The notes under the pieces: generated by a model
The model's input: the letters and a program-made list of their open reading frames with translations, nothing else
Databases searched by the model: none
Told to the model about the DNA's origin: nothing
In this document: positions 26,249 through 63,761 of the stretch, in pieces
How positions within the stretch are numbered: the first letter of the stretch is position 1
Layout of the letters: every line of letters starts with the position of its first letter
Program-made: the position numbers and the translations under genes
Virus record (IMG/VR): IMGVR_UViG_3300021960_000026
Strand: one strand, 5' to 3'
Length of the DNA stretch: 64,000 nucleotides
Origin: an uncultured virus (IMG/VR IMGVR_UViG_3300021960_000026)
Lineage: Duplodnaviria; Heunggongvirae; Uroviricota; Caudoviricetes

Positions 26249-26895
26249 AGAACAAAATTTCCACTTACGCTTATTCTAGTATGATCCGTCCAAAATGGCG
26301 GAACATAGTGTTTTAATCCTGCAGGAAATATAAGCATTAGATTATCAAAAGGATTGACCTTAAAATAATGATGCATGAAAGTGCATATCTTTTCACCGTA
26401 TTCAAAAACAATACTGCCTGCAACTGGTGTATTTGTGTCTGCTTGATTTTCTAAAATTTCTTGCGGAACACTACAGTATATTACGAATGATAAAACTCCC
26501 TTGTGATCGTGTGGGGGATTAAAATCGTGTTTTTTATTAAAGTTTACCCAAAGGCTTTCTAACTTAATATTTTTGTACTGTTCTACATCTACAGCACCCT
26601 TATACTGCATTCTTATCATGTCAAAGAATGTATTAACCTTATCCTTAAGAATGGGCTCCATCTCTGTTTTATACTGATCACTAAATGTATAACTCCTTCC
26701 ATACTTCAAATTACCAGCAAGTTTATGATTAAAATCATCCTTTACTGATAATTTTTTTGATTCATTAAGCAAGGATTGGACTATTTCATCTGTTAGTGTT
26801 GTTTGAAATATAGGTGGTCCAAAAGGATAAATTACCTTATCGTTTTTGGCATTGGCTGCGTATGCTGAATCCGTGACAAACTGTTTCCGTTCCAT
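26245..26895 (-). CDS. 2OG-Fe(II) oxygenase-like protein
   Basis: WVNF....DFNP.HDH.G.LSFVIY, IFPA.L.H.V.PF....RISVSGN. Confidence 0.85.
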   Translation of the reverse strand: MERKQFVTDSAYAANAKNDKVIYPFGPPIFQTTLTDEIVQSLLNESKKLSVKDDFNHKLAGNLKYGRSYTFSDQYKTEMEPILKDKVNTFFDMIRMQYKGAVDVEQYKNIKLESLWVNFNKKHDFNPPHDHKGVLSFVIYCSVPQEILENQADTNTPVAGSIVFEYGEKICTFMHHYFKVNPFDNLMLIFPAGLKHYVPPFWTDHTRISVSGNFVL

Positions 26896-32200: not shown

Positions 32201-35200
32201 AATCCTTCTGCAACAGAACCAAAGTCACCGTATGAGTTGTTACCGTTAGTTCCTCTAATTCTACCACCATTGGTTGCTAGATAACCAACGTGTGAGTAGT
32301 AAGTAAACACAGACACAAGTTCAGCTCTACCATTGTTATCTACCCAAGCACCGATACCGTCGGAAATAACCTGTGTAAAGTCGTTTGACACCATCGAGTC
32401 ATTACCGCCGTTGTGTAGGGTACCGTCGATCTTCTGACCAATCGCTGCATAACCAAACGTTGTACAGTTTTGAGTGTATGGTGAACGTGCAATAATCCAT
32501 GTACGGAAATCATCTGGTCCCCAACCTGGATCAAGCGAAACGTAAGCACCAGCGGAAACTCTTGATGTTCCATAACTGTTTGGAGGTAACAGATCACCAT
32601 TCAATCCATCGAGTGTTTGGTTTCTAATACCAGTACCATTTCTTACATAATAGAAGTCTTCTTCGTGACTTCCTGTTGCTGCGTTAACATAGTATCTTGC
32701 AACATATCTTGATTTGTAGTTAGATACCCATTCAAGATCCCATTTAATTGCATCAATGTATGTGTCAACATCTCTCATACATAACGCTTCGTTGTAGTAC
32801 ATAGCAACAGTCATGCTGCCGGAAGCAGTTGAAAGTGTTAATGATGTTGTTGCATATCTTGTTGTGGCAATTGTAAATGTCGTTGTGTTAACAACATCTT
32901 GAACATAGTAAGTCGTATCTGCACTTATACCGCCAAATACTGTTCCTGAAAATCTAACTGCCGTGTTTCTTTTTAACCAACTCGTATCACTAATTGTAAT
33001 TGCGTTTCCAGAAATTGATGTGTTGGTTACTGTATCTGTAAACTGATCATCGATGTAAGCACTAACTTCTGCTTTCAAGAATGCTCTGTTCTGTTCTAAT
33101 TTTAGTCTAGCATAGTATGCCATTCTAGAATCAGTTGCACAAACAGCACCCTCATTTGATGCTCCGTAGAATACACTGTCTAACATGTCCATTAGAGAAG
33201 CAACTCTTGATGCTGCCGTAGCATCACTGTTTAAGTATGTTGCTGTATCACCTGCAATAACACTTGCCAAATACTGGAATGATGCTCTAGTTGCTGCTTT
33301 TTGGTTTAGGTCAAACACATCACTTGCGCTTGATCTTAGATATGAATTTCCAGCAATAAGTGTCGCAAAGTTAGAATTTAATTGGAAGTCAAACATTACT
33401 GCTTCTAAAATTAATCTAGTATCTCTTTCACACTTAGCAACATTGTATGTTAAAGTAGGATATGTTGTAGAAATATAGTTAGTAACTAGCGTTACAAGGG
33501 CCTCTTGCTGCGCATCTAAGGTCTCTGCAGCGGTGATCAATGCCGTTGTACTACTTACGGAGTCCGTTGCTGCTGGCATGTCAACTTTGTGTGCAGGAAT
33601 GCTTAATCCCGAACCGTTTGTTAAAGTAGCAGCACTTCCGCCATAGGTTGTGCTAATTGTTAATTGGTTTGAAGCCGGTATTGATTCAACCCAATATGTT
33701 AGATCTTTTGTCATTCCGTTTGAAGTTTCTAAAGGAATGAAAATGTCTCCAACTTGTAAACCGTGATCGACTAGGGTCGTAATTGTATTTGAAGAAATTG
33801 TTGTAATTGTAGAATTTGGTAAATCAGCACCAGTCGAGTCTCCTCCAACTGCGTTTGTAACTATGTCCAAATGTCCTGTTACAAAATCTCTTGCTGTAGA
33901 GTTTGCTACATTACTGTTTCTATATTGATTGATTGTTGTGTTCTTTTTCGTAATTGCAGTATTATTTACAATGTCGATCAAAAGAGTTCTTAAGAATGCA
34001 TGAGACTCTAGCGTTTCTCCCTTAATGCTTGCTGGAATCAACGAAGAATTTCCTTCTCCGTCCCAATATGCCTTAGCAGCATTTAGAGTTTGATAGTAGC
34101 CACCGTAGGTTAAGTCATACACTAATGCATCAACAATGTGTCCTACATCTTCTCTGGTATCTGTTTTACCAAATTTTAAGTTAGGATAGTTTTCAGCAAA
34201 CCAAGCAATTATTTCTTCCTGCAAGAATTTTTTATTTTCTTGAATTAATTTTCTTGCATTTCCAAAAGTTGCTAGATATGATGAGTTATAACCTGTTGGG
34301 TCTGTATATGAAGCGGTATGTTTAGTACCAAGTCTATAGTCTACTTGATGTTTCATTACATCAACTAACTTGCTTACTTGGGCACCTGTCACAACATCGT
34401 CAGCCAACGGCCATGATATGTCTTGTGTTTCTGTATTTCCAGATGTTGGAGTTACAGAATTTCCGCTTACGATGCCTCTTGCAACACTGCTAAAGTGAGC
34501 GAGTGTTTGAATTGAATAATAAGAGTCTGATATGTCAAGTGGTCTATCTGTTGCAGATGCTGCTCTTACCTTGGTAGTTCTTAATTCGTCACCTAGGATA
34601 CAAGTTTCTGCAGGAACGATGATCGGTAATACTTCTCTATATTCGCCTGCTTTAACATTAACGATGTTGTTAGGAACAACCCTTCCTGGGATAGCACTGT
34701 TATCTCCTGCAGAAATTGTATTAGTTACAATTGCTAACAATGAAGTAACACTTGCATAAACTCCTGATTCAACAACAACGTCAGCATCTTTATATTGTAA
34801 AGCAACAGCAGTTGAGTCTGACCCACCTGGTGTTTGATATGCAGTTGTTGGATCTGTTTGATTTAAAACGTTTCCAATGATTGTTAATAGGTGACCATAT
34901 GCTGCTAAACTTTCGTCTTTTTCTGCAGAAAGGTTAGCGTACGGAACATCTTCTGACTCTGCAGAGTATGGACCATCACCTAGTGCATCAACAAATGTTT
35001 GTGCTGCGGCTCTTATCTTTAGGTTGCCGCCGTGACCAATGTCCCAAATTAATCTATCAATGATCCAACCAACATCTCTCTCACATTTGTGTTCGTCATA
35101 ATCAAATGCGCTTGTAAATGGAGAAATGTTATTAATTACATTGTATTCGATGAAACTAGTGACTTCTCTTTGTAAGAACACTCTGTTCATTTCAAGTAGA

Positions 35201-36939
35201 CGTTGAGCATTAGGGTTTAAAGCACCTTTTTCAATTTGCTCGCACGCATATCTAATTGTTGCCCAAGGCATATCTAGTGTAGCACCATGAATTGGAGCAG
35301 GTAAATCTGTTCCGCCAGGAGCAACATAATACACATGATCAACTTTTCCTAGTGTAGTCCATTGTGGAATAGTTCCTGATGATGTTAGTACTTGACCTTG
35401 GATACCGATAGGTAATCTTGTTGGACCTGCACCTGAATAGTAAACCAAATCACCTGTGGTTGTAAGTACGTCGATATCACTACCAATGGATAATACATTC
35501 CAGTATGTTCCTGAAGTATCCTGATCTGGTCTTGAATTAGCAGCACCGCCGCCTTCTGCACCAATGGATGATCCGTCATCGCCTTCTGCTCTGTGATTTT
35601 GAATACAGATGTAAGCATTAGATCCGTATCTAACAGAATCGCCTAGGAAGTATTCAGTATCGTCAGTCCACTCGCCTCTCCAAAGTATACCACTGTTTAA
35701 TCTATCCCAGTATACTACGTTTCCAGGTAATGATCCTGCATCGACAGTCATTGTTCCTGAAGCAGAGGTAGGAGTGAATACTGTTCCGCCTGGTGTTTCT
35801 GTAATTGTAAATTCTGTTGCACTAACTACCTGTTTAATGTAGTAGTGATTTCCTGATGCTACATTTCCAAAAGTTGAACCTGTAAATTTAACAGCCCATC
35901 CTACAACTAGTGTTGATGTATCTGTAACTGTAAAATAATTTGTTCCAGCATTGGTTGCTGTTACGGTATCAGAAAAATTAGGAGCATCAATTTTTGCTCT
36001 GTATGTATAGCCGTTTAAATTAACAACATCACCAATCTTGTATGAAGTTGCAACATCCCAGTCTGACTGGAATGTCATGTTCTCTGTATATAAACTCCAA
36101 TCTGTCTGACCTGCGGCAGTAGGTAATGTGTCGTCGTGAATTGTTCTAGCAATGTATTGGTTACCACCGTAACGCACAATGTCGCCTGGTTGGTAAACTG
36201 TTACACTACTCCATGTGTTTTCATACTCAAATCCTTTTACGAACACACTCCAGTATGAAGAAAGATCATTTCCAAAAACTGATGTTGCTGTGTGATGTGC
36301 TGTACAAACATATAAGTTTGCACCTTCCTTAACAACATCATTTACTTTATATCTAGTTAGAGCGGTCCAGTCAGCCTTGTATTCAAAACCTTGGTTCCAT
36401 GTATCCCAGTAACTGCTCTGTCCTTCTAATCCAGTTGATGCTAGAGTTTCTGATGTATGACCCACATTTGCAACGTAGGTAGTACCACCGTATCTGACAA
36501 TGTCATTTTTCTTATAGCGTGTGGAAATTGTCCAATTGTTTTTCCATTCAAATCCTTCAGCAAACAGATCCCATTTTGCTTGATCCGCTTCTAATCCTGT
36601 GGTTGTTTCTGTTCCTGGTGTTCCAGATCCAACGCTAGAGTTTGATGTATGTGGAGTGTTGGCAATGTATAAAAGTCCACCGTACTTGACAATGTCATTT
36701 ATTTTGTAAGTAGTGCTTACTGCCCAATCGTCTTTCCACGATTGACCATCACTCATTTGGTTCCATTTAGTTGGATTGTAGTTTAGATCTGTGTAAAATT
36801 CAGAATCTGAAACGTGTCCAACTGCACATATGTAAGTGCGGCCACCAAATCTTATAACGTCGTCAACGTAGTATTGAGTGGTTGAAGTCCAATCACCCTT
36901 CCATACAAATCTGATTCTTCCTAATTTAAATTCTGCCAT
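29239..36939 (-). CDS. Giant virion fibre/baseplate protein (2566 aa)
   Basis: N-terminal W...Y..DD.V.YGG..Y.C...H.S carbohydrate-binding-like repeats, YYVA..G.D..G...P..TI..A segment, S.DG.TW BNR-like repeats. Confidence 0.75.
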   Translation of the reverse strand: MAEFKLGRIRFVWKGDWTSTTQYYVDDVIRFGGRTYICAVGHVSDSEFYTDLNYNPTKWNQMSDGQSWKDDWAVSTTYKINDIVKYGGLLYIANTPHTSNSSVGSGTPGTETTTGLEADQAKWDLFAEGFEWKNNWTISTRYKKNDIVRYGGTTYVANVGHTSETLASTGLEGQSSYWDTWNQGFEYKADWTALTRYKVNDVVKEGANLYVCTAHHTATSVFGNDLSSYWSVFVKGFEYENTWSSVTVYQPGDIVRYGGNQYIARTIHDDTLPTAAGQTDWSLYTENMTFQSDWDVATSYKIGDVVNLNGYTYRAKIDAPNFSDTVTATNAGTNYFTVTDTSTLVVGWAVKFTGSTFGNVASGNHYYIKQVVSATEFTITETPGGTVFTPTSASGTMTVDAGSLPGNVVYWDRLNSGILWRGEWTDDTEYFLGDSVRYGSNAYICIQNHRAEGDDGSSIGAEGGGAANSRPDQDTSGTYWNVLSIGSDIDVLTTTGDLVYYSGAGPTRLPIGIQGQVLTSSGTIPQWTTLGKVDHVYYVAPGGTDLPAPIHGATLDMPWATIRYACEQIEKGALNPNAQRLLEMNRVFLQREVTSFIEYNVINNISPFTSAFDYDEHKCERDVGWIIDRLIWDIGHGGNLKIRAAAQTFVDALGDGPYSAESEDVPYANLSAEKDESLAAYGHLLTIIGNVLNQTDPTTAYQTPGGSDSTAVALQYKDADVVVESGVYASVTSLLAIVTNTISAGDNSAIPGRVVPNNIVNVKAGEYREVLPIIVPAETCILGDELRTTKVRAASATDRPLDISDSYYSIQTLAHFSSVARGIVSGNSVTPTSGNTETQDISWPLADDVVTGAQVSKLVDVMKHQVDYRLGTKHTASYTDPTGYNSSYLATFGNARKLIQENKKFLQEEIIAWFAENYPNLKFGKTDTREDVGHIVDALVYDLTYGGYYQTLNAAKAYWDGEGNSSLIPASIKGETLESHAFLRTLLIDIVNNTAITKKNTTINQYRNSNVANSTARDFVTGHLDIVTNAVGGDSTGADLPNSTITTISSNTITTLVDHGLQVGDIFIPLETSNGMTKDLTYWVESIPASNQLTISTTYGGSAATLTNGSGLSIPAHKVDMPAATDSVSSTTALITAAETLDAQQEALVTLVTNYISTTYPTLTYNVAKCERDTRLILEAVMFDFQLNSNFATLIAGNSYLRSSASDVFDLNQKAATRASFQYLASVIAGDTATYLNSDATAASRVASLMDMLDSVFYGASNEGAVCATDSRMAYYARLKLEQNRAFLKAEVSAYIDDQFTDTVTNTSISGNAITISDTSWLKRNTAVRFSGTVFGGISADTTYYVQDVVNTTTFTIATTRYATTSLTLSTASGSMTVAMYYNEALCMRDVDTYIDAIKWDLEWVSNYKSRYVARYYVNAATGSHEEDFYYVRNGTGIRNQTLDGLNGDLLPPNSYGTSRVSAGAYVSLDPGWGPDDFRTWIIARSPYTQNCTTFGYAAIGQKIDGTLHNGGNDSMVSNDFTQVISDGIGAWVDNNGRAELVSVFTYYSHVGYLATNGGRIRGTNGNNSYGDFGSVAEGFDTTEVEGTAIVDNKFQYEATIGSVFTDGANQVLQFEYGNAGEQYTETTFGVFGAGSNASAEVDKELRDGAVHNVRLLDNVDDSTTAPEAEGNFGGFGYVTNSNTAQGGTTTQITIAATDSETSTAYIGMRIYLTGGTGVGQFGDITTYNSGTKVATVVKPSDGSAGFDHLIQGTTLAAPDASTTYTIEPKLAFTAPPFTTTARTLATSTTWADIAYSNIYQSFENISADSTSGSGTGAVFDITKKGSKYLIRLDSGGTGYAVNDTLTFNGTSLNGTSTNNFVITVTSINSVTGAITAFDKEGFGSGGNFVALPSASGNTVNYSKDGITWAAVTTLPVSTTWVSLAGGRIATQELAGTFVTGRSYTITDSGDTPWLSIGSSSIIAGTTFVATGPGTFTSVAGKATPNAARIIAIAGGTGIDDTAYSEDGGLTWTAGGNLPSTGDWVDVAYGDSKWVAIKTGSNATAVTTNGGATWTSGGNLPASTTWESIAYGGGYWVAIASGGSNVAYSLDNGTTWTAGTGLSSSNWKSVTYGNNRFVAVSNTSGTKAAISLDKGANWTETTLPATKTWSHIEYGQGVFLAVNDTDNVGATSPDGVTWTSRTLSTSANGFIATAFGNPDQTGKFISIDDTSGTVASETHAGATTRARAFVASNKIFAIRIHEPGSGYTTAPTLTITDPNNTFEAPTQVRIADGVLANPSFRNRGTGYISASADIDVGDGYADFYQSGSFIAVRRLSKIPAVGSNVVFSHLPNRVFKLVQVLTLLGAYDGSYTAFLQISPDMTVFDSPGHGTAITTRIRYSQVRLTGHDFLDIGTGNFTETNYPGIPTQSPIQANETVDNGGGRVFFTSTDQDGNFRVGDLFSIEQSTGVATLNADAFNISGLQELTLGEVTLGGGSASITEFSTDPFFTENSDSIVPTQRAIKAYISSQIGGGGASLNVNSVTAGFIYIANNEITTTTGGIIEMKGKFNFQGGVVGMPLAFNYFLT

Positions 36940-36990
36940 TGTCGTTTCCGTTTGTTGTGTAGTATTTATCCATGTTGATCATCATCACTC

Positions 36991-39900
36991 CTAATCATTA
37001 AACGAATCGTAGAACATTGTTTGGGCTAACATGCTTCCGCTGATTTGCCCTCCCTTAATAAATTCAGCTCTTACCGGTATTTTAATCTCTAAACTGGCAA
37101 CATTATCCATTAAGTTAGGACCAACTTTCACTGTTCCTGCAATGAAACTTGCTGTTAATAGATCTGAACCACCAACGTTTAATCTGTTTTGTAAATACGC
37201 TTTGATTGCTCTCTGCGTAGGAATAACGTTATTACTATCCTGAGTAAATGCAGGATCAGTTGAGAACTCTCTAATAACCGTACCTGATCCACCCAATCTT
37301 ACACCACCAAGTGCAAGTTCTGTTAGACCTCCTAAGTCAAAGAAATCAGCACTAATTGTAACAATACCAGTTGCTTGTTCTACCGCAAATAATTCACCGC
37401 AGCGGAAGTTACCACTTTGGTCTGTACTTGTGTAGAATACCCTACCACCATTGGCTTCAACTACTTCATTTTCTGGAGCAGAATTAAATTCGCCAGTTGT
37501 GTATATTGTAGGATAATTTGTTTCCGTAAAGTTACCCGTTCCGATATCTAGGAAGTCGTGTCCACTAATTCTAACTTGAGAATATCTTTCTCTAATTTCC
37601 ACCTGTGATGAGTGTTCTAAATAATCATCAAGTGTTAGTTCTGGACTAATTCTAAACGTACCTACATAGGTTCCGTCAACATTTCTACTTACAATTGCTG
37701 ATGTAGCAACAGTATAGTAATTAACAGTATCACCTCTGAATCTAAACTGTGTACCAGGTCCTGGAAGTACATTGAATCCACCGACAACAACATCTTTACC
37801 TTTAGGAATCACATCAGCAAATCCATCACCTAGTATGGTTACCTGTGTAGTACTGGTTCTATAACCAGCGCCTCTGTTAATCCAACCTGGCTGCGCTAGA
37901 GCGGCATCGCCTAATCTAACTTCAACATAAGCAGGATCGGTTACATTAGGATCCGTTAGCGTAACAGTTGGATTAGATTTATATCCACTGCCTGGCTCCC
38001 ATAGTCTAATATGCTTAACGCTTCCGGCTTCAACTATTGCTCTACCAAGAGCTCGACAACCTGTTTCAATCTTACACGCATGATCAAAATTGTCTGCAAC
38101 AGTAATGAACATTGGTGTGCTGTTTGATTGTTGTGTTGAGTCTCCCAATGATATGTCAGGATTACCAAATCCTAAACTTACCCAGTAAGAAGCCTGCGAT
38201 AATAATCTGTCCTGCCATAACACACCATCGTATGATGTTGCACAGAATGCTGACTGTCCAGGTGTTGGATCATCTCCAACATTTCTCGAACCAGTGTCAC
38301 CAATAGCAAAGAAAACACCCTGTCCGTATCTAATTTTTTTCCAAGCATGAGCAGTTGATCCATCCTGTGTTGGCATGGTTCCCGCTAACCAATTCGTTCC
38401 ATCGAAACTGTAACTAACATCGCCCGTTGTGGATACCGCTACCCATCTGTTGTTACCGTAGGCAATGCTGATCCAGTCTCTGGTAGATGAGTCGTCACTA
38501 ACATCCATGATGTGTGCTTCCCAAGTCCATGTATCGGTATTGCTGTTGTATTCTCCAACTGCTGCAAAGTTACCACTGTTCGCAACCGCAACAAATTTGC
38601 CTTTGCCGTATGTGATATCGATCCACTGGTTGAATGTAGAATCTCCAATATCTGGTAATGTTGTGGCCTTCCATGTTGTGCCGCCATCTGTGCTGTATGC
38701 TGCGGCATCAAGATTGGATGCAATTGTAAGGAACACACCGTCACCGTTTCCTGAATTTGATTTTCCGTAAACTATTGCTGACCAGTTTCTAGAAGATGGA
38801 AGGGTAGATGTACTCCAGTTAATTCCATCTTCTGAATGTATTGCTTGTGTGCTTAATTGTTTAATTGCAACAAATTTATGTCCGCCTGCGGCAATCATAT
38901 TCCAGTTTCCGGCAGATGGAAGTGTTGCCTGAGTCCAGTTTGTTCCATCTTCCGAGTAGGAATAATTATCTGTTCCAGAAGCCACCGCAACGAACCTTCC
39001 GCTGGTTGCTGTGCCCTCGTATCTAAATCCTGTGATTGTATTCGTGCTATCTTCACTAACTGCTGTTACTGTTATAACGATATCATGCTCTCCGTCAGTG
39101 CCGCCAACATCCGCTCCAGAAATTGTTATTACCTGACCTACTTCGTACAATGCTCCTTCAAATGTCATTGTAACTGCATATTTTCTTCCATTCTTCACTG
39201 CACTAAATGTTGCAGAGATTGGTGTTGATGCTCCGCCGGTAACAGTTCCTTGTAGGCTTGTATAAGTTTCTTTTGTTTCTCCGTATGCAATGTCTTTCCA
39301 ATTTAGTGTTTGGCCCATGTTGGGAATTGATCTGTCAAAAGGTGGTTCACTAAATGTAACTCTAGGTTCAAATCTATAGGTATTGTCAGTGAACAGCAAA
39401 GGCTGTATCGGAGTTCCGGGAATAACGTGATCCCATCCTAGAGTATTATCTGATTCTTTTCTAACCTGACAAACTTTTGTTAGTGTATTGTATGCAACTA
39501 CGTATCCGTATTGTCCTGCGCCCTTACCCGAAGTAATGATTAATCTCATGCCTAAGAGTTTTGCTTCCGTATTATCGTCGTTGGATGCTAATGTAAGGCT
39601 TGTAGTATTTCCTTCCTGTGCGTTATTACCTACCAATGTATAACCTAGGCCGCCTTCTGTTGCGCCAGCATCGCCGGGTGCGTTCTTAACCAATGCTTCA
39701 AATACAGCATCGTCTCTAATTTCTTCGTGCACCACACTTGCATTAACACCAGAACCCGTAAATGTATAATTTGCAGTTGAATAATTTTGTCCTGCATTTC
39801 TATATTCTAATATTAGAATCTCGTCGTTGACCTCACCGGCAAACGCTGATTCAATATATGCTTGTCCTGTTCTAGTGTTAACTTCTGCATAAACAGGAGT

Positions 39901-42606
39901 TTCTGTAGGATCGTTGCCGTCTGCTACCGCACCAAAGTTACCATAGGATGAGTTACCATTAGTTGCTCTAATAACTCCTCCCTGTCTTGCGAACATACCA
40001 ATCTGTGCATAGTAGGTAAACACAGACACAAGTTCTGCTCTACCGTTGTTCTGCACCCATGCGCCTACGCCATCACTAATGACCTGTGTAAAGTCATTGG
40101 ATACTATTGATTTAACTCCACCGTTGTGTAGGTTACCGTCAATCTTCTGGCCAACACAGTTGTCACCAAAAGTTGTAACGTTCTGAATGTAAGGAGATCT
40201 ATTAATGATCCAACACTCTCTGTGATCAGGACCAAAGCCCGGATCCAATGAACAGAATGCTCCTCCAGTTGGTAACTGATACAATTCGTATACGTTAGGT
40301 GGATTCAATGTTCCATTTAGTCCCTTAACAGTCATGTCCTTAAGTGATGTTGTATCTCTCAAATAGAACATGTCGTCGTTTTGAGAACCTAGAATTAAAT
40401 TTCTATAGTATCTTGCATTTAGAAGAGATCTGTAATTTCCTGGATATCTTAAATCAAAAATAAATCCTTCAACAGCATTTCTCAAAAGGTATCTATATCT
40501 TGCTTCGTTAATTGTGTACACACCAGCATTTTGCAATTTAACATATTGGAGTGCTTCCTCAGCAATGAAGTTTCTATTTTGTCTTATGATTGTGTGAGTA
40601 TTTCTAGCCGCCGGTCCTGTTATTTCGGTTGCAAGGGAAAGAGTTGTTACTTCGGTACCAATGCTGTTTAATTCAAAATCTATGTATTGGCCCATCTGTA
40701 AAATTCTTGCGGAAATATCAGCACCTGCCGAATCAAGTATATCCGAATCTTCTTCGATAGGTAATCCAGTAATTGCATCAAGTGTTTCTGGAACCACATA
40801 TACTTTTTCTAAATTACTAAACTGAGTTACTTGATTGTATGTGTTTGTTACTGTCTTAGTAATTGGTGTTCTATTAATAATTTCCTGTATGATGTCAGAA
40901 ACTCTGTCCAACGCTTCCTTATAGTAGGAAGTGTCAACAGTTGGCAACTCTAATGGTTTATTTGGCCATATTGTTGTTGATCGTAATTCGCTACCAACTA
41001 ATGATACATTCTTAGGAATGCTCATTGGTAAAATTTCATAATAGTTTCCTGGAGCAACCCTAACCGTGTTCAATACACTGTCTTCTCCCAGTTCCATTAT
41101 TCTGTCAAGTGCAAATTTTACTGTTCTGTATGGTTTGTTTGGATCTTTACCTCTATAAACATCCTCATCATCATCGAGTGCAACTGCAGGATCAGCACTC
41201 ACGTACCAAACCTTGTTAATAATTCCAACTCTTCCATAGTCAACAGTATGATCTGATTGAACTATTAGTGAGTCTGATGCATTACCAATTGCTAAATTTG
41301 TAGTTCCTAGTGTTGATCCATCTCCTGCAAGCTCTCTTGATAGACCGTAAGTTAATATGTCACCAACATTGCTTAAAGCAACATTTGGACCCGCTAATAA
41401 TAGAACATCCCAATAATAAAAACCCGAACCGTTGTCGCCTGGATAATTGTCATTGCCACTTGTGTGCTGATAATTACATTTGTATGTGGTTCCTCTGTAT
41501 AAAACTACATCCCCAATCGCATATGATGCACCAGTTACCCAACTGTTTTTCCAATAGGTACCAGTAACTACTATTTCCCAGTTTGATGCATCTAGATAAT
41601 CAAGTGTCGATCCGTCTGCTGAAATATCAGTGTCAATTAATGCTCTGTATAGATAGCCACCTCTAGTTACTATGTCGCCTGTTTGATAACTTGTTCCACT
41701 GTTCCATATTCCAGAATATCTAATACCATTCTGCAATAATGACCAGTTCATGTCTAGTTGTGGTTGATTATAAATGCTTGTTACAGGATTTATATTTCGA
41801 TGATTAGTGTTGGAAATATAGAGGAAACCTCCATGTTTTACAACATCACCTATTGCATAGAATATAGAAGAAGACCATTCATTTCTAAAATTGTAACCTG
41901 GAAACTCAACATCAAAATATTGTGCTTGTATGTCTTCGTGATTTGAAACGTGTCCTTCATTACAACGAAGTATGCTTCCTCCGTACAATACTAAATCATT
42001 CTTAATGTATCGATAATTTCCTGTTTGGAATGCTCCAGTGTAATTAATACCTTCGTAAAGTGTTTCCCATAGTTCGCCTGTGCTGTCATCTTGGCTATCG
42101 GCATTACCAACTTCAGGACCAACTTCACTTGTATCTGATGTATGTTCTGCAATACATCTATAAACATAGCCTCCGTATTTTACAACATCACCGATACCGT
42201 ATCTAGTTACCGGTTGCCAATTTGTTGCCCAGTTAAATCCTGTGGTGTATTCGGCCCATTTTTCTGCATTAGCAATAAAGGTAAAACCTGAAATATGTCC
42301 CTGTAAAGCAATATATAGTACACCTCCATATAGAGCAAGATCGCCTGGTGCATATGTTATTGATGAATTCCAGTCACCTCTAAAGGCATAACCATCGGTC
42401 ATTTTTACCCATGCTGGTGTTGGATCAGTGTCTCCAGGATTTGCTAGATAAGCCTGATCAGTAATAAAAGATGACGATGTATGTTTTCTAACACAGACAT
42501 AGGTAACACCTCCATATCTTATAACATCATCTTTGTTATAAGCGGTGGCTCCTAACCATGCTCCGCGCCATGTATATCTAATTCGACTTATCTTAAATTC
42601 TGCCAT
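36991..42606 (-). CDS. Giant virion fibre/baseplate protein (1871 aa), paralog of 29239-36939
   Basis: Same start MAEFK..R.R..W.G.W and shared blocks SNDFTQVISDG.GAWV.NNGRAELVSVFTYY and GHDFLDIGTGNFTETNYP. Confidence 0.75.
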   Translation of the reverse strand: MAEFKISRIRYTWRGAWLGATAYNKDDVIRYGGVTYVCVRKHTSSSFITDQAYLANPGDTDPTPAWVKMTDGYAFRGDWNSSITYAPGDLALYGGVLYIALQGHISGFTFIANAEKWAEYTTGFNWATNWQPVTRYGIGDVVKYGGYVYRCIAEHTSDTSEVGPEVGNADSQDDSTGELWETLYEGINYTGAFQTGNYRYIKNDLVLYGGSILRCNEGHVSNHEDIQAQYFDVEFPGYNFRNEWSSSIFYAIGDVVKHGGFLYISNTNHRNINPVTSIYNQPQLDMNWSLLQNGIRYSGIWNSGTSYQTGDIVTRGGYLYRALIDTDISADGSTLDYLDASNWEIVVTGTYWKNSWVTGASYAIGDVVLYRGTTYKCNYQHTSGNDNYPGDNGSGFYYWDVLLLAGPNVALSNVGDILTYGLSRELAGDGSTLGTTNLAIGNASDSLIVQSDHTVDYGRVGIINKVWYVSADPAVALDDDEDVYRGKDPNKPYRTVKFALDRIMELGEDSVLNTVRVAPGNYYEILPMSIPKNVSLVGSELRSTTIWPNKPLELPTVDTSYYKEALDRVSDIIQEIINRTPITKTVTNTYNQVTQFSNLEKVYVVPETLDAITGLPIEEDSDILDSAGADISARILQMGQYIDFELNSIGTEVTTLSLATEITGPAARNTHTIIRQNRNFIAEEALQYVKLQNAGVYTINEARYRYLLRNAVEGFIFDLRYPGNYRSLLNARYYRNLILGSQNDDMFYLRDTTSLKDMTVKGLNGTLNPPNVYELYQLPTGGAFCSLDPGFGPDHRECWIINRSPYIQNVTTFGDNCVGQKIDGNLHNGGVKSIVSNDFTQVISDGVGAWVQNNGRAELVSVFTYYAQIGMFARQGGVIRATNGNSSYGNFGAVADGNDPTETPVYAEVNTRTGQAYIESAFAGEVNDEILILEYRNAGQNYSTANYTFTGSGVNASVVHEEIRDDAVFEALVKNAPGDAGATEGGLGYTLVGNNAQEGNTTSLTLASNDDNTEAKLLGMRLIITSGKGAGQYGYVVAYNTLTKVCQVRKESDNTLGWDHVIPGTPIQPLLFTDNTYRFEPRVTFSEPPFDRSIPNMGQTLNWKDIAYGETKETYTSLQGTVTGGASTPISATFSAVKNGRKYAVTMTFEGALYEVGQVITISGADVGGTDGEHDIVITVTAVSEDSTNTITGFRYEGTATSGRFVAVASGTDNYSYSEDGTNWTQATLPSAGNWNMIAAGGHKFVAIKQLSTQAIHSEDGINWSTSTLPSSRNWSAIVYGKSNSGNGDGVFLTIASNLDAAAYSTDGGTTWKATTLPDIGDSTFNQWIDITYGKGKFVAVANSGNFAAVGEYNSNTDTWTWEAHIMDVSDDSSTRDWISIAYGNNRWVAVSTTGDVSYSFDGTNWLAGTMPTQDGSTAHAWKKIRYGQGVFFAIGDTGSRNVGDDPTPGQSAFCATSYDGVLWQDRLLSQASYWVSLGFGNPDISLGDSTQQSNSTPMFITVADNFDHACKIETGCRALGRAIVEAGSVKHIRLWEPGSGYKSNPTVTLTDPNVTDPAYVEVRLGDAALAQPGWINRGAGYRTSTTQVTILGDGFADVIPKGKDVVVGGFNVLPGPGTQFRFRGDTVNYYTVATSAIVSRNVDGTYVGTFRISPELTLDDYLEHSSQVEIRERYSQVRISGHDFLDIGTGNFTETNYPTIYTTGEFNSAPENEVVEANGGRVFYTSTDQSGNFRCGELFAVEQATGIVTISADFFDLGGLTELALGGVRLGGSGTVIREFSTDPAFTQDSNNVIPTQRAIKAYLQNRLNVGGSDLLTASFIAGTVKVGPNLMDNVASLEIKIPVRAEFIKGGQISGSMLAQTMFYDSFND

Positions 42607-59332: not shown

Positions 59333-61800
59333 GCGGCCAATAACTTCTTAGCGTCCTCAACAGCATCAGGACCCAATTTTTTAAGTTCAGCAGCAAGTTT
59401 ATTAATATCAACCGGAGCCGCAGTTGTTCCTGTTGCTGCCGTATCCTGTCCTTGTCCTGCGCCTCTATTATCAGGTGCTGGTGTTTCTCCGCTTGTAGCG
59501 TCTGGTGCTACTGATTTTCCAGTTTGTGGATCAACTGTAGCGTTATCGTCCTGACCACCACTCGTTGACGCTGTATTCGTGTCTGTGGCGCCATCTGTAG
59601 GTGCTCCTACTGGATTGCCTGTCTTGTCAAGATTGTCTTCGGGTGAAGCATCGGGTGATCCTGCTTTTGGTTTGGCAATTGGTTTGCCAGTTTTATCCAT
59701 AAGCCCCGCTTTTGGAAAATTATAAGTTTTGTTCTTTTCGTCCTTGATTGACAGGTGGGTTTCACGACCATCTTCGGACGGGCCAACAATTGTTCCTTTC
59801 ATTTGTTGACCTTTACTTGTCTTGAATGTGACTTCGGTTCCCTTTTCAATGCCCTGCTTTTTCAATTCCTTGGCTGCTGTAAATTCTTTTTCTACCTGTT
59901 TTTCTTCCTGTGGAGAAAGACCTCTTCCAAGTCTTAGGGCTCTCTGTTCCTTTGCTTTTCCTAGATCATCATCCGTTGCTGATGCTGTTGCTGTAGCACC
60001 TGCATCGTCTGTTGCTGCTGGCTCATCGCCGCCTGCATTAGCATCTGCGGCTCCGGTAGTTGAAGTGTCAGAACCTGCATCGCCTGCTGTTGAATCGGTA
60101 GGTGCATCTGCGTTTGTATCTGCATCCGCTGCGCCTGCGTCTTTATCAGCATCCGGTGCATCCGTTGCTGCTGGTGGCTTGATCTGCATTGAGTCATAGG
60201 TACCCTTGATAACATCGTCGGATACTCCCATGCCCTTTATGACATTGTATATCTCATCTGAATCCGTTGGCGAACCCGCTTTCTTCCAGGCAGTGTTTAA
60301 TTTTTCAGCAGTAACCTTTGTGGTAACCTGTTTGGCTGCGCCCTTGATGGCACCGCCAATTGCCTTGGCACCTTTCTTGAGTGCATCAAGCGGTCCTTCG
60401 TTGATTGTTTGTCTGTTGTAGTGTGAAAGTGCATCAAACACGCTTTCAAACATTATTTTGTTTTCCAGCATGTGTGTGTTTACTTTTTCTAATCTGTTAA
60501 ACAGTAGATAAATTTGGCCTTCTGAAAGTTTCTTGCCCTTGATAATTCTGCTTTCATTTCCCTTGACAATGTTTGGATTTTCTTCTTCCTCACCTGCTTC
60601 GCCTTCCAGTTCTGCTTTTTGTTCAGGACTAATTGGTTTAGCCTTGTGCATTTCCTTGGCATCGCTATCAACAGTTTGTACAGCACCCTGTGCCGCTGCT
60701 CCTGCTGCTCCGCCAATACCTTGTATTGTTTCAATTGCTTCGTCTGCATTGTCAAGCACTGCAATAACTGCATCCAACTGATCACCTGTCAATGCATCTC
60801 TAGGAATGTCTGCTATGGTTCTTGCAAGTGCGGTTAGGTCTGCGTTTGCCTGTTGTGTTGTTGAGAGCCAACCGTGTAATTCGCCTGCCGCTTTGTAATA
60901 CTCCGGACTAAATGCTTTTGCGTTTGACGCCGCTGATGCTAACTGTTTGTATGTTGCAACCTGATCAGCAGTCATTGTCAAATCGTAGTTGTAATAAAAT
61001 GCATTGATGTTGCCTGATATTTCTAAATTCTGTGCTCCGTCCAACACACCTGTGCCCAATCCTGAATCTGCAACTGCCTTGTCCACTGCGGCCGTAAAGT
61101 TTGCCTTTTCAAAACCATCCATCATGGCATCTGCTTCTGCTTCACTACCAATTGCAATGTTGTCAATGATGTTATCAGTTATGCCCTTGATTGCCGCACC
61201 AGCAAGAGCACCATAGGCTGCTGTCTTGATTGACTTGCCTACTGCCGTTGAAAGTTTTTGTCCCTGTAATAAGTCCTTGGTTGCTCGTGCAAGGAAACCT
61301 GCAATGGCACCACCAAGTGGTCCACCAGCAACTGCTGCCGCTGCCGTTAGGATACCTACCGCAACTGAAGCCTTTCCTGGGTTTGCTTTTGCCCAATCCG
61401 AAACTGCCTTGACCGCATTGACTACCTTGCTGTCCTTTGAACCAATCTTTTGTTTTAGTTCCTCAAACTTAGCGTCTGCATTTTTTACTGGACCGGCCTT
61501 TTGTACCAATCCACCGAGCTTGTTAATTTGTGTATCAATCCACTTGACTGCCTCTACTGGAAGTTTTGCAACGTCAACGGCCTTGCCTGCCAACGTTCTG
61601 TTTCCACCTGCTGCATTTGAGCCCTGCTCAACGCTCGTGAATAACTGTTTGATCTGTTCAGGTGATAGGTTTGCTTCAAACACATACTGTTCAATTCTCG
61701 TAACCCAAGGATGGATTTCCTTCTGTTCAAACAGCGTCCATGCCGGATCGTTCCAGCCTTCAGTAACCAATTGTCTTTTTTGTATCTGTCCTAGTCTCAT
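59329..61800 (-). CDS. Large Ala-rich putative internal virion / ejection protein
   Basis: 823 aa; hydrophobic Gly/Ala hairpin; disordered C-terminus; several protease-like Glu sites. Confidence 0.55.
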   Translation of the reverse strand: MRLGQIQKRQLVTEGWNDPAWTLFEQKEIHPWVTRIEQYVFEANLSPEQIKQLFTSVEQGSNAAGGNRTLAGKAVDVAKLPVEAVKWIDTQINKLGGLVQKAGPVKNADAKFEELKQKIGSKDSKVVNAVKAVSDWAKANPGKASVAVGILTAAAAVAGGPLGGAIAGFLARATKDLLQGQKLSTAVGKSIKTAAYGALAGAAIKGITDNIIDNIAIGSEAEADAMMDGFEKANFTAAVDKAVADSGLGTGVLDGAQNLEISGNINAFYYNYDLTMTADQVATYKQLASAASNAKAFSPEYYKAAGELHGWLSTTQQANADLTALARTIADIPRDALTGDQLDAVIAVLDNADEAIETIQGIGGAAGAAAQGAVQTVDSDAKEMHKAKPISPEQKAELEGEAGEEEENPNIVKGNESRIIKGKKLSEGQIYLLFNRLEKVNTHMLENKIMFESVFDALSHYNRQTINEGPLDALKKGAKAIGGAIKGAAKQVTTKVTAEKLNTAWKKAGSPTDSDEIYNVIKGMGVSDDVIKGTYDSMQIKPPAATDAPDADKDAGAADADTNADAPTDSTAGDAGSDTSTTGAADANAGGDEPAATDDAGATATASATDDDLGKAKEQRALRLGRGLSPQEEKQVEKEFTAAKELKKQGIEKGTEVTFKTSKGQQMKGTIVGPSEDGRETHLSIKDEKNKTYNFPKAGLMDKTGKPIAKPKAGSPDASPEDNLDKTGNPVGAPTDGATDTNTASTSGGQDDNATVDPQTGKSVAPDATSGETPAPDNRGAGQGQDTAATGTTAAPVDINKLAAELKKLGPDAVEDAKKLLAA

Positions 61801-62696
61801 TATAGCATCTTCATCAGTTGTTGTTTATCTCTTGCTGGAAGTTGTTCCAACTGTTTCTTTAATTCTGGTGGTAGCGTTGATCCAGGTTCAGCAAATTGAT
61901 CCTTTGCTGCCTGACCCGCTGCCTTAAATGCTCCTCCAATGCCTCCGCCCTGTGCGTCTGCTGGAGCAACACCTGTTCCTGTATCCTTTTGTCCGCCTTC
62001 GTCACGTGCAACTGCCTGTCTTACCGCTGCCATGAATATGTTGTCCAATTGTCCTCTTGATAGGGTAACTGCACCATCCTCAAATATAAATTCTGCTTCG
62101 CTCCAATCAATGGACGCTGCCTGCATTGTTTTGTTTTGCTGGCTTGGTGGAACTATTTTCTTTCCTTTCTGGCTCTTGATAGCAACGTTATTGGTCGGAG
62201 TGGGTTGTGGTTTTTCTTGATCCTGTGATGTAGTTTGTTGTGTGTTAGTGGGTGCATTTGCATCCTTGGCACCTGCTACGGCACCCTTTGCAACATCCGC
62301 CACGCCCTTTGCCACTGCTCCAACGCCCTTGGCTATTCCGCCTGCAACCTTGCCTACGCCCTTAGCAGCCGCGCCAGCGGCCGTCCCTACGGCGGCTCCA
62401 ACTTTTTGACCAGCAGTCATCTTGGTCATTTCCTTTTCGGCATCTCCCGTAGGATAGTTGTTCTTTCTTAGAAAATCTATTACTGTCTGTGGTGTTGGCT
62501 TTCCGCCAACCTTGCCCATGAATGTATCAAATTGTTTGATTAACCAGTTGGCTTCCTTGCCAACTTCAAGATTGCCCTTTGCTTGTCTACCAGTAGCACC
62601 CGGAACGAATGATTTTGCCTTGTTAGCAAATCGTGATAGCATGCCCTGTGGTGCTTCATCTAATTGTTGTTCGATCAGAATTTCGTTTAAACGCAT
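61800..62696 (-). CDS. Putative internal virion protein
   Basis: MRLNEILIE..LDEAP start; amphipathic Ala/Gly/Lys repeats; TAAATA at 62727-62732. Confidence 0.55.
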   Translation of the reverse strand: MRLNEILIEQQLDEAPQGMLSRFANKAKSFVPGATGRQAKGNLEVGKEANWLIKQFDTFMGKVGGKPTPQTVIDFLRKNNYPTGDAEKEMTKMTAGQKVGAAVGTAAGAAAKGVGKVAGGIAKGVGAVAKGVADVAKGAVAGAKDANAPTNTQQTTSQDQEKPQPTPTNNVAIKSQKGKKIVPPSQQNKTMQAASIDWSEAEFIFEDGAVTLSRGQLDNIFMAAVRQAVARDEGGQKDTGTGVAPADAQGGGIGGAFKAAGQAAKDQFAEPGSTLPPELKKQLEQLPARDKQQLMKML

Positions 62697-62744
62697 TGAT
62701 AAATGTCCATTACTTTATTAATGTAGTATTTATGTTCGAAAGAC

Positions 62745-63326
62745 TGTAAAGAGAGATCTAAAGATCTCTTGCACTTTCGCTGTCGCTCAGTGCATTTTTC
62801 TCCTCACGAACTTTTAAGACACTTATTATATAGTGAACAATAACTGCGAAGCAGTTTTAGCATCATCTAGATTGTATGGTCACAATTAGCCCGTCTCCGG
62901 GCCAAAGGTGTGTTTTGAACATCATCTGAGTTCGCACAGTCACAATAGCATTAGAACTACAAGATTGTATAATTTACAATATTTTACACAAAATTTTAAT
63001 ATATTTTGTATATTGTACAACCTAGCGCAGGCGGTTATCCGGTACCTACTCATTCCGTCTTAGTATCTTATGTACAACGGCAGTTATACTTGAAATGCTA
63101 TCTCCAAGTATAACCTGTGGGAATGACCCACTCTTTTAGCCTATTCGTTACTTTATTATTACACAGCAAACCGGTTGTTTTAGGCATATCCGATCGTCGT
63201 CCTGTTAAGGATAGTGCTGTTGCCACTCCGCCGTTACCCAGAGAATTCCTTACCGTGCGACATCACCACGGATTTCGGGCACCATACCAGTTGCCGGTGC
63301 AGGCTTAATTAACGGTTTATACTGCC
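62745..63326 (-). ncRNA. Candidate large structured non-coding RNA / DNA element
   Basis: About 580 nt without a credible ORF in a gene-dense genome; more than 10 hairpins, several needing G-U pairs on the minus strand; GAGA tetraloop. Confidence 0.6.
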
Positions 63327-63761
63327 TTAGAGTATTGTTTTGAGGTGTTCTTTTAGAATTTTGGAACCGCCCACTCGCACGTTGATTATTCCATTGTAAT
63401 AATCGTCTGTTTCCAGCACCCTGCGATCAAACTGTTCCTTTGCCTCTAGATAACTTAGTATGCCTTTGCTTGGACAATAGTGAAGAATTTCTCTTGTAAA
63501 CTTTTCTTCGCCTAGTTTTGCAACGTCTTCCAGAAGATTGTCCGAGGAGCCCCAATAGTCTCTCCAATCGCTTTCAACTGTTGAACGTCTTTTATTTTTT
63601 CTGCCTTTTAAAGGTGGTCTAGTTTTTTTGAATTGAGCAAGTTTCTTGCCTATGTATTTTCGCCCGTTTGTGAGATTTGTGATCAAATAGACAAAGCCAA
63701 TGCATCCCTCCGGAATTTCATCAACAATTTTGTTATTATGTGTCCATTTGTGAGTCGTCAT
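63327..63761 (-). CDS. Minimal GIY-YIG family nuclease
   Basis: GFVYLITN..NGRKYIGKK, YWGSS, F.REIL, LE..EQ, YYN; no C-terminal DNA-binding domain. Confidence 0.85.
   Translation of the reverse strand: MTTHKWTHNNKIVDEIPEGCIGFVYLITNLTNGRKYIGKKLAQFKKTRPPLKGRKNKRRSTVESDWRDYWGSSDNLLEDVAKLGEEKFTREILHYCPSKGILSYLEAKEQFDRRVLETDDYYNGIINVRVGGSKILKEHLKTIL

What the first reader, a model, noticed from the sequence alone, without database searches (positions are those of the whole stretch)
62861..62949. Twin conserved-flank / variable-core units inside the non-coding tract
Seen: two direct repeats 59 nt apart, CATCATCT-AGATTGTATG-GTCACAATTAGC (62861-62890) and CATCATCT-GAGTTCGCACA-GTCACAATAGC (62920-62949), separated by the GNRA hairpin. 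On the minus strand each reads AUUGUGAC-N10/11-AGAUGAUG, with identical 8-nt flanks and unrelated cores. Inference: constant flanks around short variable segments is the layout of programmable guide loops (bridge RNA, TIGR, box C/D; AUGAUG is box-C-like). It could equally be a pair of protein-binding sites (iterons) in DNA.
Basis: partly seen in the sequence, partly recalled or inferred. Interest (0 to 1): 0.75.

Follow-up and report, generated by a model that had tools for sequence, protein, structure and literature searches.

The report
Twin docking motifs in phage RNA
The two repeats are real, but they are a duplicated piece of a large folded RNA carried by uncultured giant water phages, not re-programmable guides. 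Their short shared motif always changes in both copies together, which suggests that one unknown partner reads both.

Summary
**Observation:** confirmed. The two units lie at 62861-62890 and 62920-62949 on either side of a GAGA hairpin. The composite pattern occurs twice in the window and in 0 of 100 shuffles.

**What it is:** part of a roughly 560-nt structured minus-strand RNA.
- The RNA begins with a Polynucleobacter-1 motif (RF01718, 62.2 bits).
- It is conserved in 141 fetched viral and metagenome loci of uncultured aquatic T4-like phages.
- It lies directly behind a minimal SegE-type GIY-YIG gene in 87 of 87 loci with enough flank.

**Guide-loop reading:**
- Cores are as conserved as flanks (mean top-base frequency 0.85 against 0.73-0.96).
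- There are only two units.
- None of 57 ORFs in the window matches a Nop, IS110, Cas or RT family.

**New result:** the 3' flank (RNA sense A-S-A-U-R-A-U-G) exists in three variants.
- Both units carry the same variant in 141 of 141 loci.
- There were at least five independent double switches.
- No complementary partner exists in cis.

**Best reading:** two equivalent exposed docking sites for one lineage-specific trans partner, probably a protein. The partner is unidentified. Neither neighbouring protein tracks the variants.

The parts
62861..62868 (-). Unit A 3' flank, RNA sense AGAUGAUG. It is part of the conserved element AUCUA-S-AU-R-AUGCU. The S and R positions switch in lockstep with unit B.
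62869..62878 (-). Unit A core, RNA sense CAUACAAUCU. The 3' AUCU is invariant. The 5' six bases have 8 clade-specific variants.
   Evidence: No second exact copy or complement in the window.
62879..62886 (-). Unit A 5' flank, RNA sense AUUGUGAC. It directly follows the GNRA hairpin. In single-sequence folds its GUG pairs with a CAC or CCAC in the linker 5' of that hairpin.
   Evidence: The extension of the helix is inferred from single-sequence folds, not from covariation.
62886..62906 (-). Hairpin H1 between the units (stem of about 8 bp, loop GAGA here).
   Evidence: Loops are GAGA, GUAA, GAAA and mostly GCAA in relatives. G-U pairs and compensatory changes are present.
62907..62919 (-). A-rich linker between unit B and H1 (RNA sense UUCAAAACACACC). 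Its length and sequence vary among relatives.
   Evidence: unit-to-unit spacing 51-67 nt.
62920..62927 (-). Unit B 3' flank, RNA sense AGAUGAUG. It is part of the conserved element AACUCA-S-AU-R-A-W-G.
62928..62938 (-). Unit B core, RNA sense UGUGCGAACUC. The 3' ACUC is invariant. The 5' part has 11 variants, and in many relatives it pairs with bases just 3' of the motif.
   Evidence: flanks pair around the motif with mean z -1.44 over 28 variants; weak in the window itself, z -0.2.
62939..62946 (-). Unit B 5' flank, RNA sense AUUGUGAC. This is the least conserved of the six segments.
   Evidence: mean top-base frequency 0.73.
62842..62856 (-). Hairpin H2 just 3' of unit A (6-bp stem, invariant loop region CUUCG).
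   Evidence: Three pairs with compensatory changes; 99.7% of cells paired.
62752..62793 (-). Two further tail hairpins: 62771-62793 (with tandem G-A motif) and 62752-62769 (covarying, terminator-like).
   Evidence: (I8). The second hairpin shows 3-5 pair types at each of 6 pairs.
62963..63022 (-). AT-rich 60-nt variable insertion, seen only in the window, L021, L096 and L187 among aligned rows. Relatives have a short covarying hairpin here.
63023..63158 (-). Conserved central domain of the RNA (hairpins at 63117-63131 and 63083-63114, and a CUGCCG...ACGGA...CCGCCU block).
63159..63305 (-). Polynucleobacter-1 RNA motif (RF01718), the 5' domain of the same tract.
   Evidence: 62.2 bits (gathering score 37), E 2e-12, full model. 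Also found in L020, L021, L055, L134.
63327..63761 (-). Minimal SegE-type GIY-YIG gene (144 aa), a fixed upstream neighbour of the RNA.
   Evidence: PF19835, E 9.8e-36. Present in 87 of 87 loci with at least 700 nt upstream.

Best explanation
The twin units are two copies of an old tandem duplication. Each module runs: hairpin, UGUGRC, about 10 nt, conserved A-S-A-U-R-A-U-G element, A-rich linker. They sit in the 3' domain of a roughly 560-nt structured RNA read from the minus strand (about 63305 down to about 62750). The RNA starts with a Polynucleobacter-1 motif. It is fixed between a minimal GIY-YIG gene and a virion-module gene in a lineage of uncultured aquatic T4-like, probably jumbo, myophages.

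Shown: the RNA structure and its strand, the conservation of the cores, and the lockstep change of the two 3' flanks.

Inferred: the two 3' flanks are exposed single-stranded elements held between helices. They act as two equivalent docking sites for one trans-acting partner whose specificity differs between phage lineages. The partner is most likely a sequence-specific RNA-binding protein (a dimer or two copies, possibly a processing nuclease). Less likely it is a trans RNA. The cores are spacers and local stem material, not guides.
For: 1. RNA on the minus strand.
- RF01718 match in the same tract.
- Single-sequence fold z -4.8.
- H1 and H2: 96.5% of cells paired, against 89.3% in shuffles (0 of 500). 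Five pairs carry compensatory changes. Covariation score is 0.233, against 0.102 in shuffles and at most 0.066 in slid controls.
- G-U and U-G pairs, and GNRA loops, exist only in minus-strand sense.
- The tail hairpin covaries.

2. Conservation.
- Both units are present in 141 of 141 fetched loci.
- The second unit was not part of the fetching pattern.

3. Lockstep change.
- Unit B and unit A classes are GG/GG in 48 loci, GA/GA in 36 and CG/CG in 57, with 0 discordant.
- On a tree of the tract with these columns masked, position 2 needs at least 2 changes and position 5 at least 3.
- The GA variant sits in three different sequence backgrounds.

4. No cis partner.
- No other column of -520..+260 reaches the same mutual information.
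- The complement 7-mer is absent from the tract in all but a few loci, and there it lies at unrelated distances.

5. Motifs unpaired.
- The motifs are unpaired in the consensus fold.
- Unit-specific neighbours (CUCA in B, UCUA in A) stay fixed right next to the switching base, which argues against gene conversion.
Against: - No partner has been identified.
- Neither adjacent protein tracks the variants. The GIY-YIG tree needs 8 class changes, and L144 (CG) and L173 (GG) have nearly identical GIY-YIG proteins. The tree of the downstream protein's N-terminus needs 7 changes.
- Five double switches is a small number. Block recombination could lower it, although the sequence between the units is background-specific.
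- Transcription is not shown. Metatranscriptome contigs cover the tract only patchily and at depths like the flanking genes, and contigs give no strand or ends.
- The single-stranded state is a prediction. In many relatives, though hardly in the window, unit B's motif is enclosed by a stem.
- The fetching pattern fixed most of unit A, so more divergent relatives that might be discordant were not sampled.
Confidence: 0.45

Rival explanations
1. Symmetric RNA-RNA contact. The two motifs touch each other, either within one molecule or between copies of the RNA in a homo-oligomer of the kind GOLLD, ROOL and OLE form. Pairing would run antiparallel around the self-complementary centre A-U, so that position 2 of one unit faces position 5 of the other.
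For: - In this register the CG class gives C-A-U-G against C-A-U-G (4 Watson-Crick pairs), the GA class gives G.A-flanked A-U/U-A, and the never-seen C/A combination would give C.A (my reading of the variants).
- In 14 of the 27 CG rows, unit B has A instead of U at position 7, which would add one more pair in that register.
- Large phage-associated RNAs are reported to form RNA-only multimers with kissing loops whose intermolecular contacts covary (abstract of 10.1101/2024.12.08.627333).
Against: - In the GG class, which includes the window, the register gives only two A-U pairs flanked by G.G, so there is almost no duplex.
- Such a contact does not require the two units to be identical. Single-unit intermediates would be as good as or better than the GG state, yet 0 of 141 loci are discordant.
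- RNAalifold pairs neither motif.
Confidence: 0.2
2. Concerted evolution without function. The two short repeats are homogenised by gene conversion or template switching, so the identical letters reflect copying and not selection.
For: The units are homologous direct repeats 51-67 nt apart. T4-like phages recombine intensely (established knowledge). The tract is mosaic with respect to its neighbours.
Against: - Homology around the switching bases is only about 8-16 nt.
- Unit-specific differences one to three bases away (CUCA against UCUA) are fixed in all rows. Unit B alone varies at position 7 (14 of 57 rows). Conversion tracts would therefore have to be about 6 nt or shorter.
- The 5' flanks of the two units do differ from each other in some rows (L149, L178, L249).
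Confidence: 0.1
3. DNA-level sites. The repeats are two binding sites in double-stranded DNA (operators, iterons, or the -10-like N-A-T-N-A-T of tandem promoters) for a DNA-binding protein or polymerase factor.
For: - Direct repeats with a constant 8-mer.
- The invariant bases A-T-.-A-T match the strongest positions of a sigma-70 -10 hexamer (recalled consensus).
- An AT-rich block lies next to them in the window.
- The lockstep change would also fit a co-evolving DNA-binding protein.
Against: - There are only two copies.
- Spacing varies from 51 to 67 bp with no helical phasing.
- No replication-initiator or repressor gene is found beside them.
- The promoter scan places no site on the units.
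- The units are embedded between helices with strand-specific RNA covariation.
- The AT-rich block is absent from most relatives.
Confidence: 0.08
4. Programmable guide loops. The cores are guide segments, presented between constant flanks to an effector, that pair with nucleic-acid targets as in TIGR tigRNAs, IS110 bridge RNAs or box C/D RNAs. The always-adjacent minimal GIY-YIG nuclease could then be the effector.
For: - Two cores of 10 and 11 nt resemble the dual 8-9-nt spacers of tigRNAs (passages of PMC12045711).
- A nuclease without a DNA-binding domain lies next door in 87 of 87 loci.
- Core A has 15 matches with at most 1 mismatch in the window against 6.9 expected (0 of 100 shuffles).
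- The cores do differ between clades.
Against: - Cores are as conserved as flanks.
- Their 3' four bases are invariant parts of the motif.
- Part of core B is stem material.
- There are two units, not an array.
- No Nop or IS110 protein is found.
- There is no exact target for either core in the window.
- GIY-YIG variants do not track the RNA variants.
Confidence: 0.04

Closest known systems
Polynucleobacter-1 RNA motif (Rfam RF01718; Weinberg et al. 2010, PMC2864571. I saw only its table row: RNA 'y', cis-regulatory 'y', switch '?', 'Burkholderiales, fresh water/estuary')
   Same: The same non-coding tract holds a full-length match on the same strand, 62.2 bits against a gathering score of 37. 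Function is unknown for both.
   Different: The Rfam model covers 141 nt at the 5' end (63159-63305). The twin units lie 210-440 nt further 3' and match no Rfam family. In 12 of 16 related loci scanned, the 5' domain does not reach the family's threshold while the twin domain is conserved.
Large ornate phage-associated RNAs GOLLD and ROOL (10.1101/2024.12.08.627333, abstract and introduction seen; PMC5737381, search listing only)
   Same: A several-hundred-nt, multi-hairpin non-coding RNA of unknown function carried by phages. Repeated exposed elements could mediate higher-order contacts.
   Different: There is no sequence or structure match to those families in Rfam. This RNA is smaller. No evidence of oligomerisation was obtained here.
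TIGR arrays / tigRNAs with Tas (Nop-domain) proteins (PMC12045711, abstract and passages seen)
   Same: Two short segments (10 and 11 nt) lie between constant elements, with a box-C-like AUGAUG, in a phage.
   Different: TIGR has long arrays, variable spacers and an adjacent Nop-domain protein. Here there are two units, conserved cores and no Nop protein.
Tandem twin-element RNAs that read one ligand twice, such as the guanidine-II (mini-ykkC) twin hairpins
   Same: Two near-identical short exposed elements a variable distance apart in one transcript, expected to keep the same recognition letters.
   Different: The elements here are not tetraloops on simple hairpins. They sit inside a large RNA, not a 5' leader of a regulated gene. 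No ligand is implied.
Plasmid or phage iterons (established knowledge)
   Same: Direct repeats with a constant short word. A co-evolving binding protein would explain lockstep change.
   Different: Only two copies, unphased 51-67 nt spacing, no initiator gene, and embedded in covarying RNA helices.

Membership tests
TIGR array / tigRNA | Adjacent gene for a Nop-domain Tas protein (PMC12045711, abstract) | tested here: not met
   Pfam scan of 57 window ORFs (6, 51) finds no Nop family. The neighbours are SegE_GIY-YIG and unannotated proteins. Only 64 kb of a probably larger genome was available.
TIGR array / tigRNA | Long array: the dual-spacer unit repeated multiple times (PMC12045711, passages) | tested here: not met
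   Exactly two units in the window and two in most relatives. The own-variant 7-mer occurs a third time at +88/89 nt in L134, L233 and L249 and at +204 nt in L159, L190 and L245.
TIGR array / tigRNA | Spacers variable while repeats are constant | tested here: not met
   Cores have mean top-base frequency 0.85, against flanks at 0.73-0.96. There are 8 and 11 core variants in 57 representatives.
TIGR array / tigRNA | Processing into 36-nt RNAs bound by the effector | not testable with these tools
   Only assembled contigs of metatranscriptomes were available, so no read ends could be seen.
IS110 bridge RNA | Encoded beside an IS110-family recombinase | tested here: not met
   No IS110 or transposase family among 57 ORFs, apart from a TnsA-like endonuclease 55 kb away at 6793-7233.
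Box C/D RNA | Box C (RUGAUGA) and box D (CUGA) forming a K-turn (motifs recalled) | tested here: not met
   The sequence reads GAUGAUG followed by U or C. The essential G-A is lost in the AGAUAAUG variant in 36 of 141 loci. I saw no CUGA in the twin region by eye.
Iterons / operator pair (DNA) | Several phased repeats next to an initiator or repressor gene | tested here: not met
   Two repeats, spacing 51-67 bp across loci, and no such gene beside them.
Polynucleobacter-1 RNA (RF01718) | Covariance-model score at or above the gathering score | tested here: met
   62.2 bits against 37 at 63159-63305 on the minus strand. This holds for the 5' domain of the tract. The twin units lie outside the model.
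Any Rfam 15 family (twin region itself) | Match up to E = 10 with lax filters | tested here: not met
   On 62740-62975 only two chance-level hits appeared (E 1.9 each, far below their gathering scores), and neither lies on the units.
tRNA / tmRNA | ARAGORN detection | tested here: not met
   0 genes in the whole window.

The most novel reading that the evidence does not exclude
The twin motifs are a two-letter 'address code' that matches this large phage RNA to a lineage-specific partner. The partner would be a phage protein, or the RNA's own copies in a multimer. RNA plus partner, possibly with the always-adjacent DNA-binding-domain-less GIY-YIG nuclease, would then form an undescribed ribonucleoprotein system of giant aquatic phages. 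The lockstep switches would mark changes of specificity, for example to avoid cross-talk between co-infecting relatives.
Probability: 0.15. Interest if true: 0.75.

Novelty: new variant of a known kind. Interest (0 to 1): 0.5.

Why it matters
Polynucleobacter-1 has been an orphan RNA motif since 2010. A full-text search found only the paper that listed it. Here it appears as only the 5' end of a much larger phage RNA, and the 3' domain carries a rare kind of evolutionary signal: two sites that must stay identical to each other while being free to change. That signal pinpoints eight nucleotides to mutate and to use as bait. This makes the function of this RNA family experimentally approachable. 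It also removes a tempting but wrong 'new guide RNA' reading.

Tried and rejected
- **RNA expression.** 19 metatranscriptome runs hold small shares of the stretch (at most 0.23). Contigs of four of them cover parts of the tract, including 62841-62962 in X3 and 62932-63087 in X1. Depths are low and similar to the flanking genes. Contigs give no strand, ends or level, and DNA carry-over is possible, so there is no verdict on transcription or processing.
- **Own genome.** The window's assembly is not held, and the nearest record, G001, is a 17.7-kb fragment without the motif.
- **Cultured phages.** Only the GIY-YIG gene matches Methylophilales phage Melnitz, at 70% nucleotide identity and in another genomic context. 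Melnitz has no twin pattern. The 298-aa protein has no match in 50,697 phage records.
- **Bacterial and archaeal genomes.** The strict pattern gives 0 hits. A relaxed twin pattern gives 10 hits, all chance on inspection.
Of 119 stretches, 8 are true relatives with both exact units, 1 is a more distant relative (L048), and the other 110 are chance matches.
- **Small ORFs from the AUG-AUG.** Linker indels of 1, 2 and 3 nt break any frame, so this was rejected.
- **Partner candidates.** GIY-YIG and the downstream protein do not track the variants. No complement of the motif lies at a plausible target in the window; the other CATCATCT sites are coding or antisense.
- **Stem around unit A's motif.** No support (mean z -0.41 over 19 variants).
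- **K-turn and box C/D pairing of the two flanks.** Considered by hand and rejected, because the required G.A/A.G and Watson-Crick partners are missing.
- **Earlier notes of this scan.** No look-up by place or by sequence returned anything.

Full report
**1. Observation**

The + strand reads CATCATCT-AGATTGTATG-GTCACAAT at 62861-62886 and CATCATCT-GAGTTCGCACA-GTCACAAT at 62920-62946. The hairpin GCCCG-TCTC-CGGGC lies between them.
- The composite pattern occurs twice in the window and never in 100 shuffles.
- The repeat finder reports both halves (D3 and D9).
- Alone, GTCACAAT is at chance (3 found, 3.3 expected), and CATCATCT is mildly enriched (9 found, 2.85 expected).

**2. Setting**

The units lie in a 630-nt ORF-free tract (62697-63326). 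On one side is a 144-aa SegE-type GIY-YIG gene (63327-63761, minus; PF19835, E 9.8e-36). On the other is a 298-aa Ala/Gly-rich gene of unknown family (61800-62696, minus).

The window is a T4-like virion module holding TerL, sheath, gp15, gp23, prohead protease, portal and baseplate hub.
- Its portal is about 50% identical to those of jumbo phages Atu_ph07, PA5oct and Phosso.
- Related metagenome contigs reach 341 kb.
- No cultured phage has the 298-aa protein.
- Only the GIY-YIG gene resembles Methylophilales phage Melnitz, where it sits elsewhere in the genome.

**3. It is RNA, on the minus strand**
- Rfam finds a full-length Polynucleobacter-1 motif (RF01718) at 63159-63305 on the minus strand, at 62.2 bits against a gathering score of 37.
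- The 331 nt 3' of it fold with z -4.8.
- On 57 representatives under 96% identical (alignment A3), the hairpin between the units (H1) and the one after unit A (H2) are 96.5% paired, against 89.3% in shuffles (0 of 500).
- Five of their pairs carry compensatory changes. Their covariation score is 0.233, against 0.102 in shuffles and at most 0.066 in slid controls.
- H1 contains G-U and U-G pairs. Its loop reads GAGA, GUAA, GAAA or mostly GCAA in minus-strand sense. The exceptions are L134, L197 and L233 and the L149/L154/L159 group.
- A further tail hairpin (62752-62769) covaries at all six pairs.
- The twin region itself matches no Rfam family, and there is no tRNA or tmRNA.
- The tract is therefore one structured RNA of about 560 nt, or closely packed RNAs. 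Its ends are not mapped.
- Earlier notes of this scan describe the same kind of large Polynucleobacter-1-type phage RNA beside a GIY-YIG gene. I confirmed the adjacency here: 87 of 87 loci with at least 700 nt upstream have the gene.

**4. The cores are not variable guides**

Across the 57 representatives the mean top-base frequencies are as follows:

| Segment | Unit B | Unit A |
|---|---|---|
| 5' flank | 0.73 | 0.96 |
| Core | 0.85 | 0.85 |
| 3' flank | 0.88 | 0.91 |

- Core A has 8 variants and core B has 11. All follow clades.
- The last four bases of each core (AUCU, ACUC) are invariant.
- Close relatives at 70-99% identity have identical cores.
- Part of core B pairs with bases just 3' of the motif in many relatives (mean z -1.44 over 28 variants).
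- Neither core has an exact second copy or complement in the window. Core A has 15 matches with at most 1 mismatch against 6.9 expected, which I did not follow up. Core B has 2 against 0.7.
- There are two units, not an array.
- None of 57 ORFs in the window carries a Nop, IS110, Cas or RT family.
- The defining features of TIGR systems, as given in PMC12045711 (abstract and passages), are not met.

**5. What the units are**

Each unit repeats the layout hairpin, UGUGRC, about 10 nt, conserved 3' element, A-rich linker, next hairpin. This indicates an old tandem duplication of a module of about 60 nt.
- Unit A's 5' flank continues the 3' strand of H1. In single-sequence folds its GUG pairs with a CAC or CCAC in the linker.
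- That linker can alternatively pair with unit B's 5' flank. I could not decide between the two pairings by covariation.
- RNAalifold leaves both 3' elements unpaired.

**6. The lockstep signal**

In RNA sense the 3' flank is A-S-A-U-R-A-U-G, with three variants: AGAUGAUG, AGAUAAUG and ACAUGAUG (ACAUGAAG in unit B of some loci).
- In all 141 loci the two units carry the same variant: 48 GG, 36 GA and 57 CG, with 0 discordant. That set contains 84 distinct sequence variants.
- Unit B was not constrained by the fetching pattern.
- In 63 unique full-length tracts, each switching column of unit A has full mutual information only with its counterpart in unit B. No other column between -520 and +260 reaches it.
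- The complement of a locus's own 7-mer is absent nearby in almost all loci.
- On a tree of the tract with the four columns masked, position 2 needs at least 2 changes and position 5 at least 3. The GA form sits in three different backgrounds.
- Unit-specific bases directly beside the switching position (CUCA against UCUA) never change, so gene conversion would need tracts of about 6 nt.
- Spacing between the motifs ranges from 51 to 67 nt. A flexible RNA tolerates that; phased DNA sites would not.

**7. Interpretation**

Identical, not complementary, co-variation without a cis partner is what two sites read by one trans factor would show, if that factor's specificity differs between lineages.
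- I favour a sequence-specific RNA-binding protein, as a dimer or two copies, possibly a processing enzyme.
- The factor is not either neighbour. The GIY-YIG tree needs 8 class changes, and nearly identical GIY-YIG proteins go with different classes (L144 and L173). The downstream protein's N-terminus needs 7 changes.
- A symmetric RNA-RNA contact around the self-complementary A-U centre is a real rival. It gives CAUG against CAUG in the CG class, and large phage RNAs are known to multimerise (abstract of 10.1101/2024.12.08.627333). It offers almost no pairing in the window's own GG class, and it does not require the units to be identical.
- DNA-level sites, functionless conversion and guide loops rank lower, for the reasons given under the rivals.

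**8. Limits**
- Transcription, strand and ends are not shown experimentally. Metatranscriptome contigs cover the tract only patchily.
- The window's genome is not held, so a genome-wide search for the partner was impossible.
- Relatives were fetched with patterns that fix much of unit A, so the most divergent members are missing.
- The only paper that a full-text search for 'Polynucleobacter-1' returned is the 2010 survey. I saw its table row only, and its supplements were not consulted.

**9. Verdict**

This is a real, conserved feature, but not a programmable guide. It is a duplicated module of an under-described large phage RNA, and its two exposed motifs evolve in lockstep. It is moderately interesting, mainly because that signal gives a precise handle on an orphan RNA family.

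Noticed in passing
window 62963-63022: A 60-nt AT-rich insertion inside the RNA tract, seen only in the window, L021, L096 and L187 among aligned rows. Relatives carry a short covarying hairpin there, and a metatranscriptome contig of run X3 shows the short form (18 other letters in its place).
   Followed up: partly
window 63327-63761 (minus): The minimal SegE-type GIY-YIG gene (144 aa, almost no extension beyond the catalytic domain) sits directly upstream of the RNA in 87 of 87 loci with enough flank. It behaves as a fixed neighbour and not as a sporadic homing endonuclease.
   Followed up: partly
window 61800-62696 (minus); L021/L132: The downstream 298-aa Ala/Gly-rich gene is strongly mosaic. 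A contig whose RNA tract is 96% identical to the window encodes a protein only 39% identical. The RNA is therefore better conserved than its neighbouring gene.
   Followed up: no
window 62869-62878 and 13 other places: The core-A 10-mer has 15 matches with at most one mismatch in the window, against 6.9 expected (0 of 100 shuffles reach 15). One of them lies at 62962-62971 inside the AT-rich insertion. No exact second copy exists.
   Followed up: no
window 62727-62733 and about 62812-62822 (minus): An ATAAATA box about 30 nt before the ATG at 62696 resembles the T4 late-promoter consensus (recalled). A TATATAAT-like box conserved in many relatives lies between hairpin H2 and the next hairpin. 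The RNA and the downstream gene may therefore have separate promoters.
   Followed up: no
window 23825-25300 (+), 21091-21726 (+), 25688-26895 (minus): A tryptophan-halogenase-family gene (PF04820, E 5e-95) and three 2OG-Fe(II) oxygenase genes sit inside the virion-gene region of this phage.
   Followed up: no
window 29239-42606 (minus): Two giant ORFs (2566 and 1871 aa) with CBM_5_12 carbohydrate-binding repeats, probably fibres or host-recognition proteins.
   Followed up: no
L134, L233, L249 (+88/89 nt from the unit-A pattern start); L159, L190, L245 (+204 nt): Some relatives carry a third same-sense copy of their own variant of the 7-mer further 3' in the tract.
   Followed up: no
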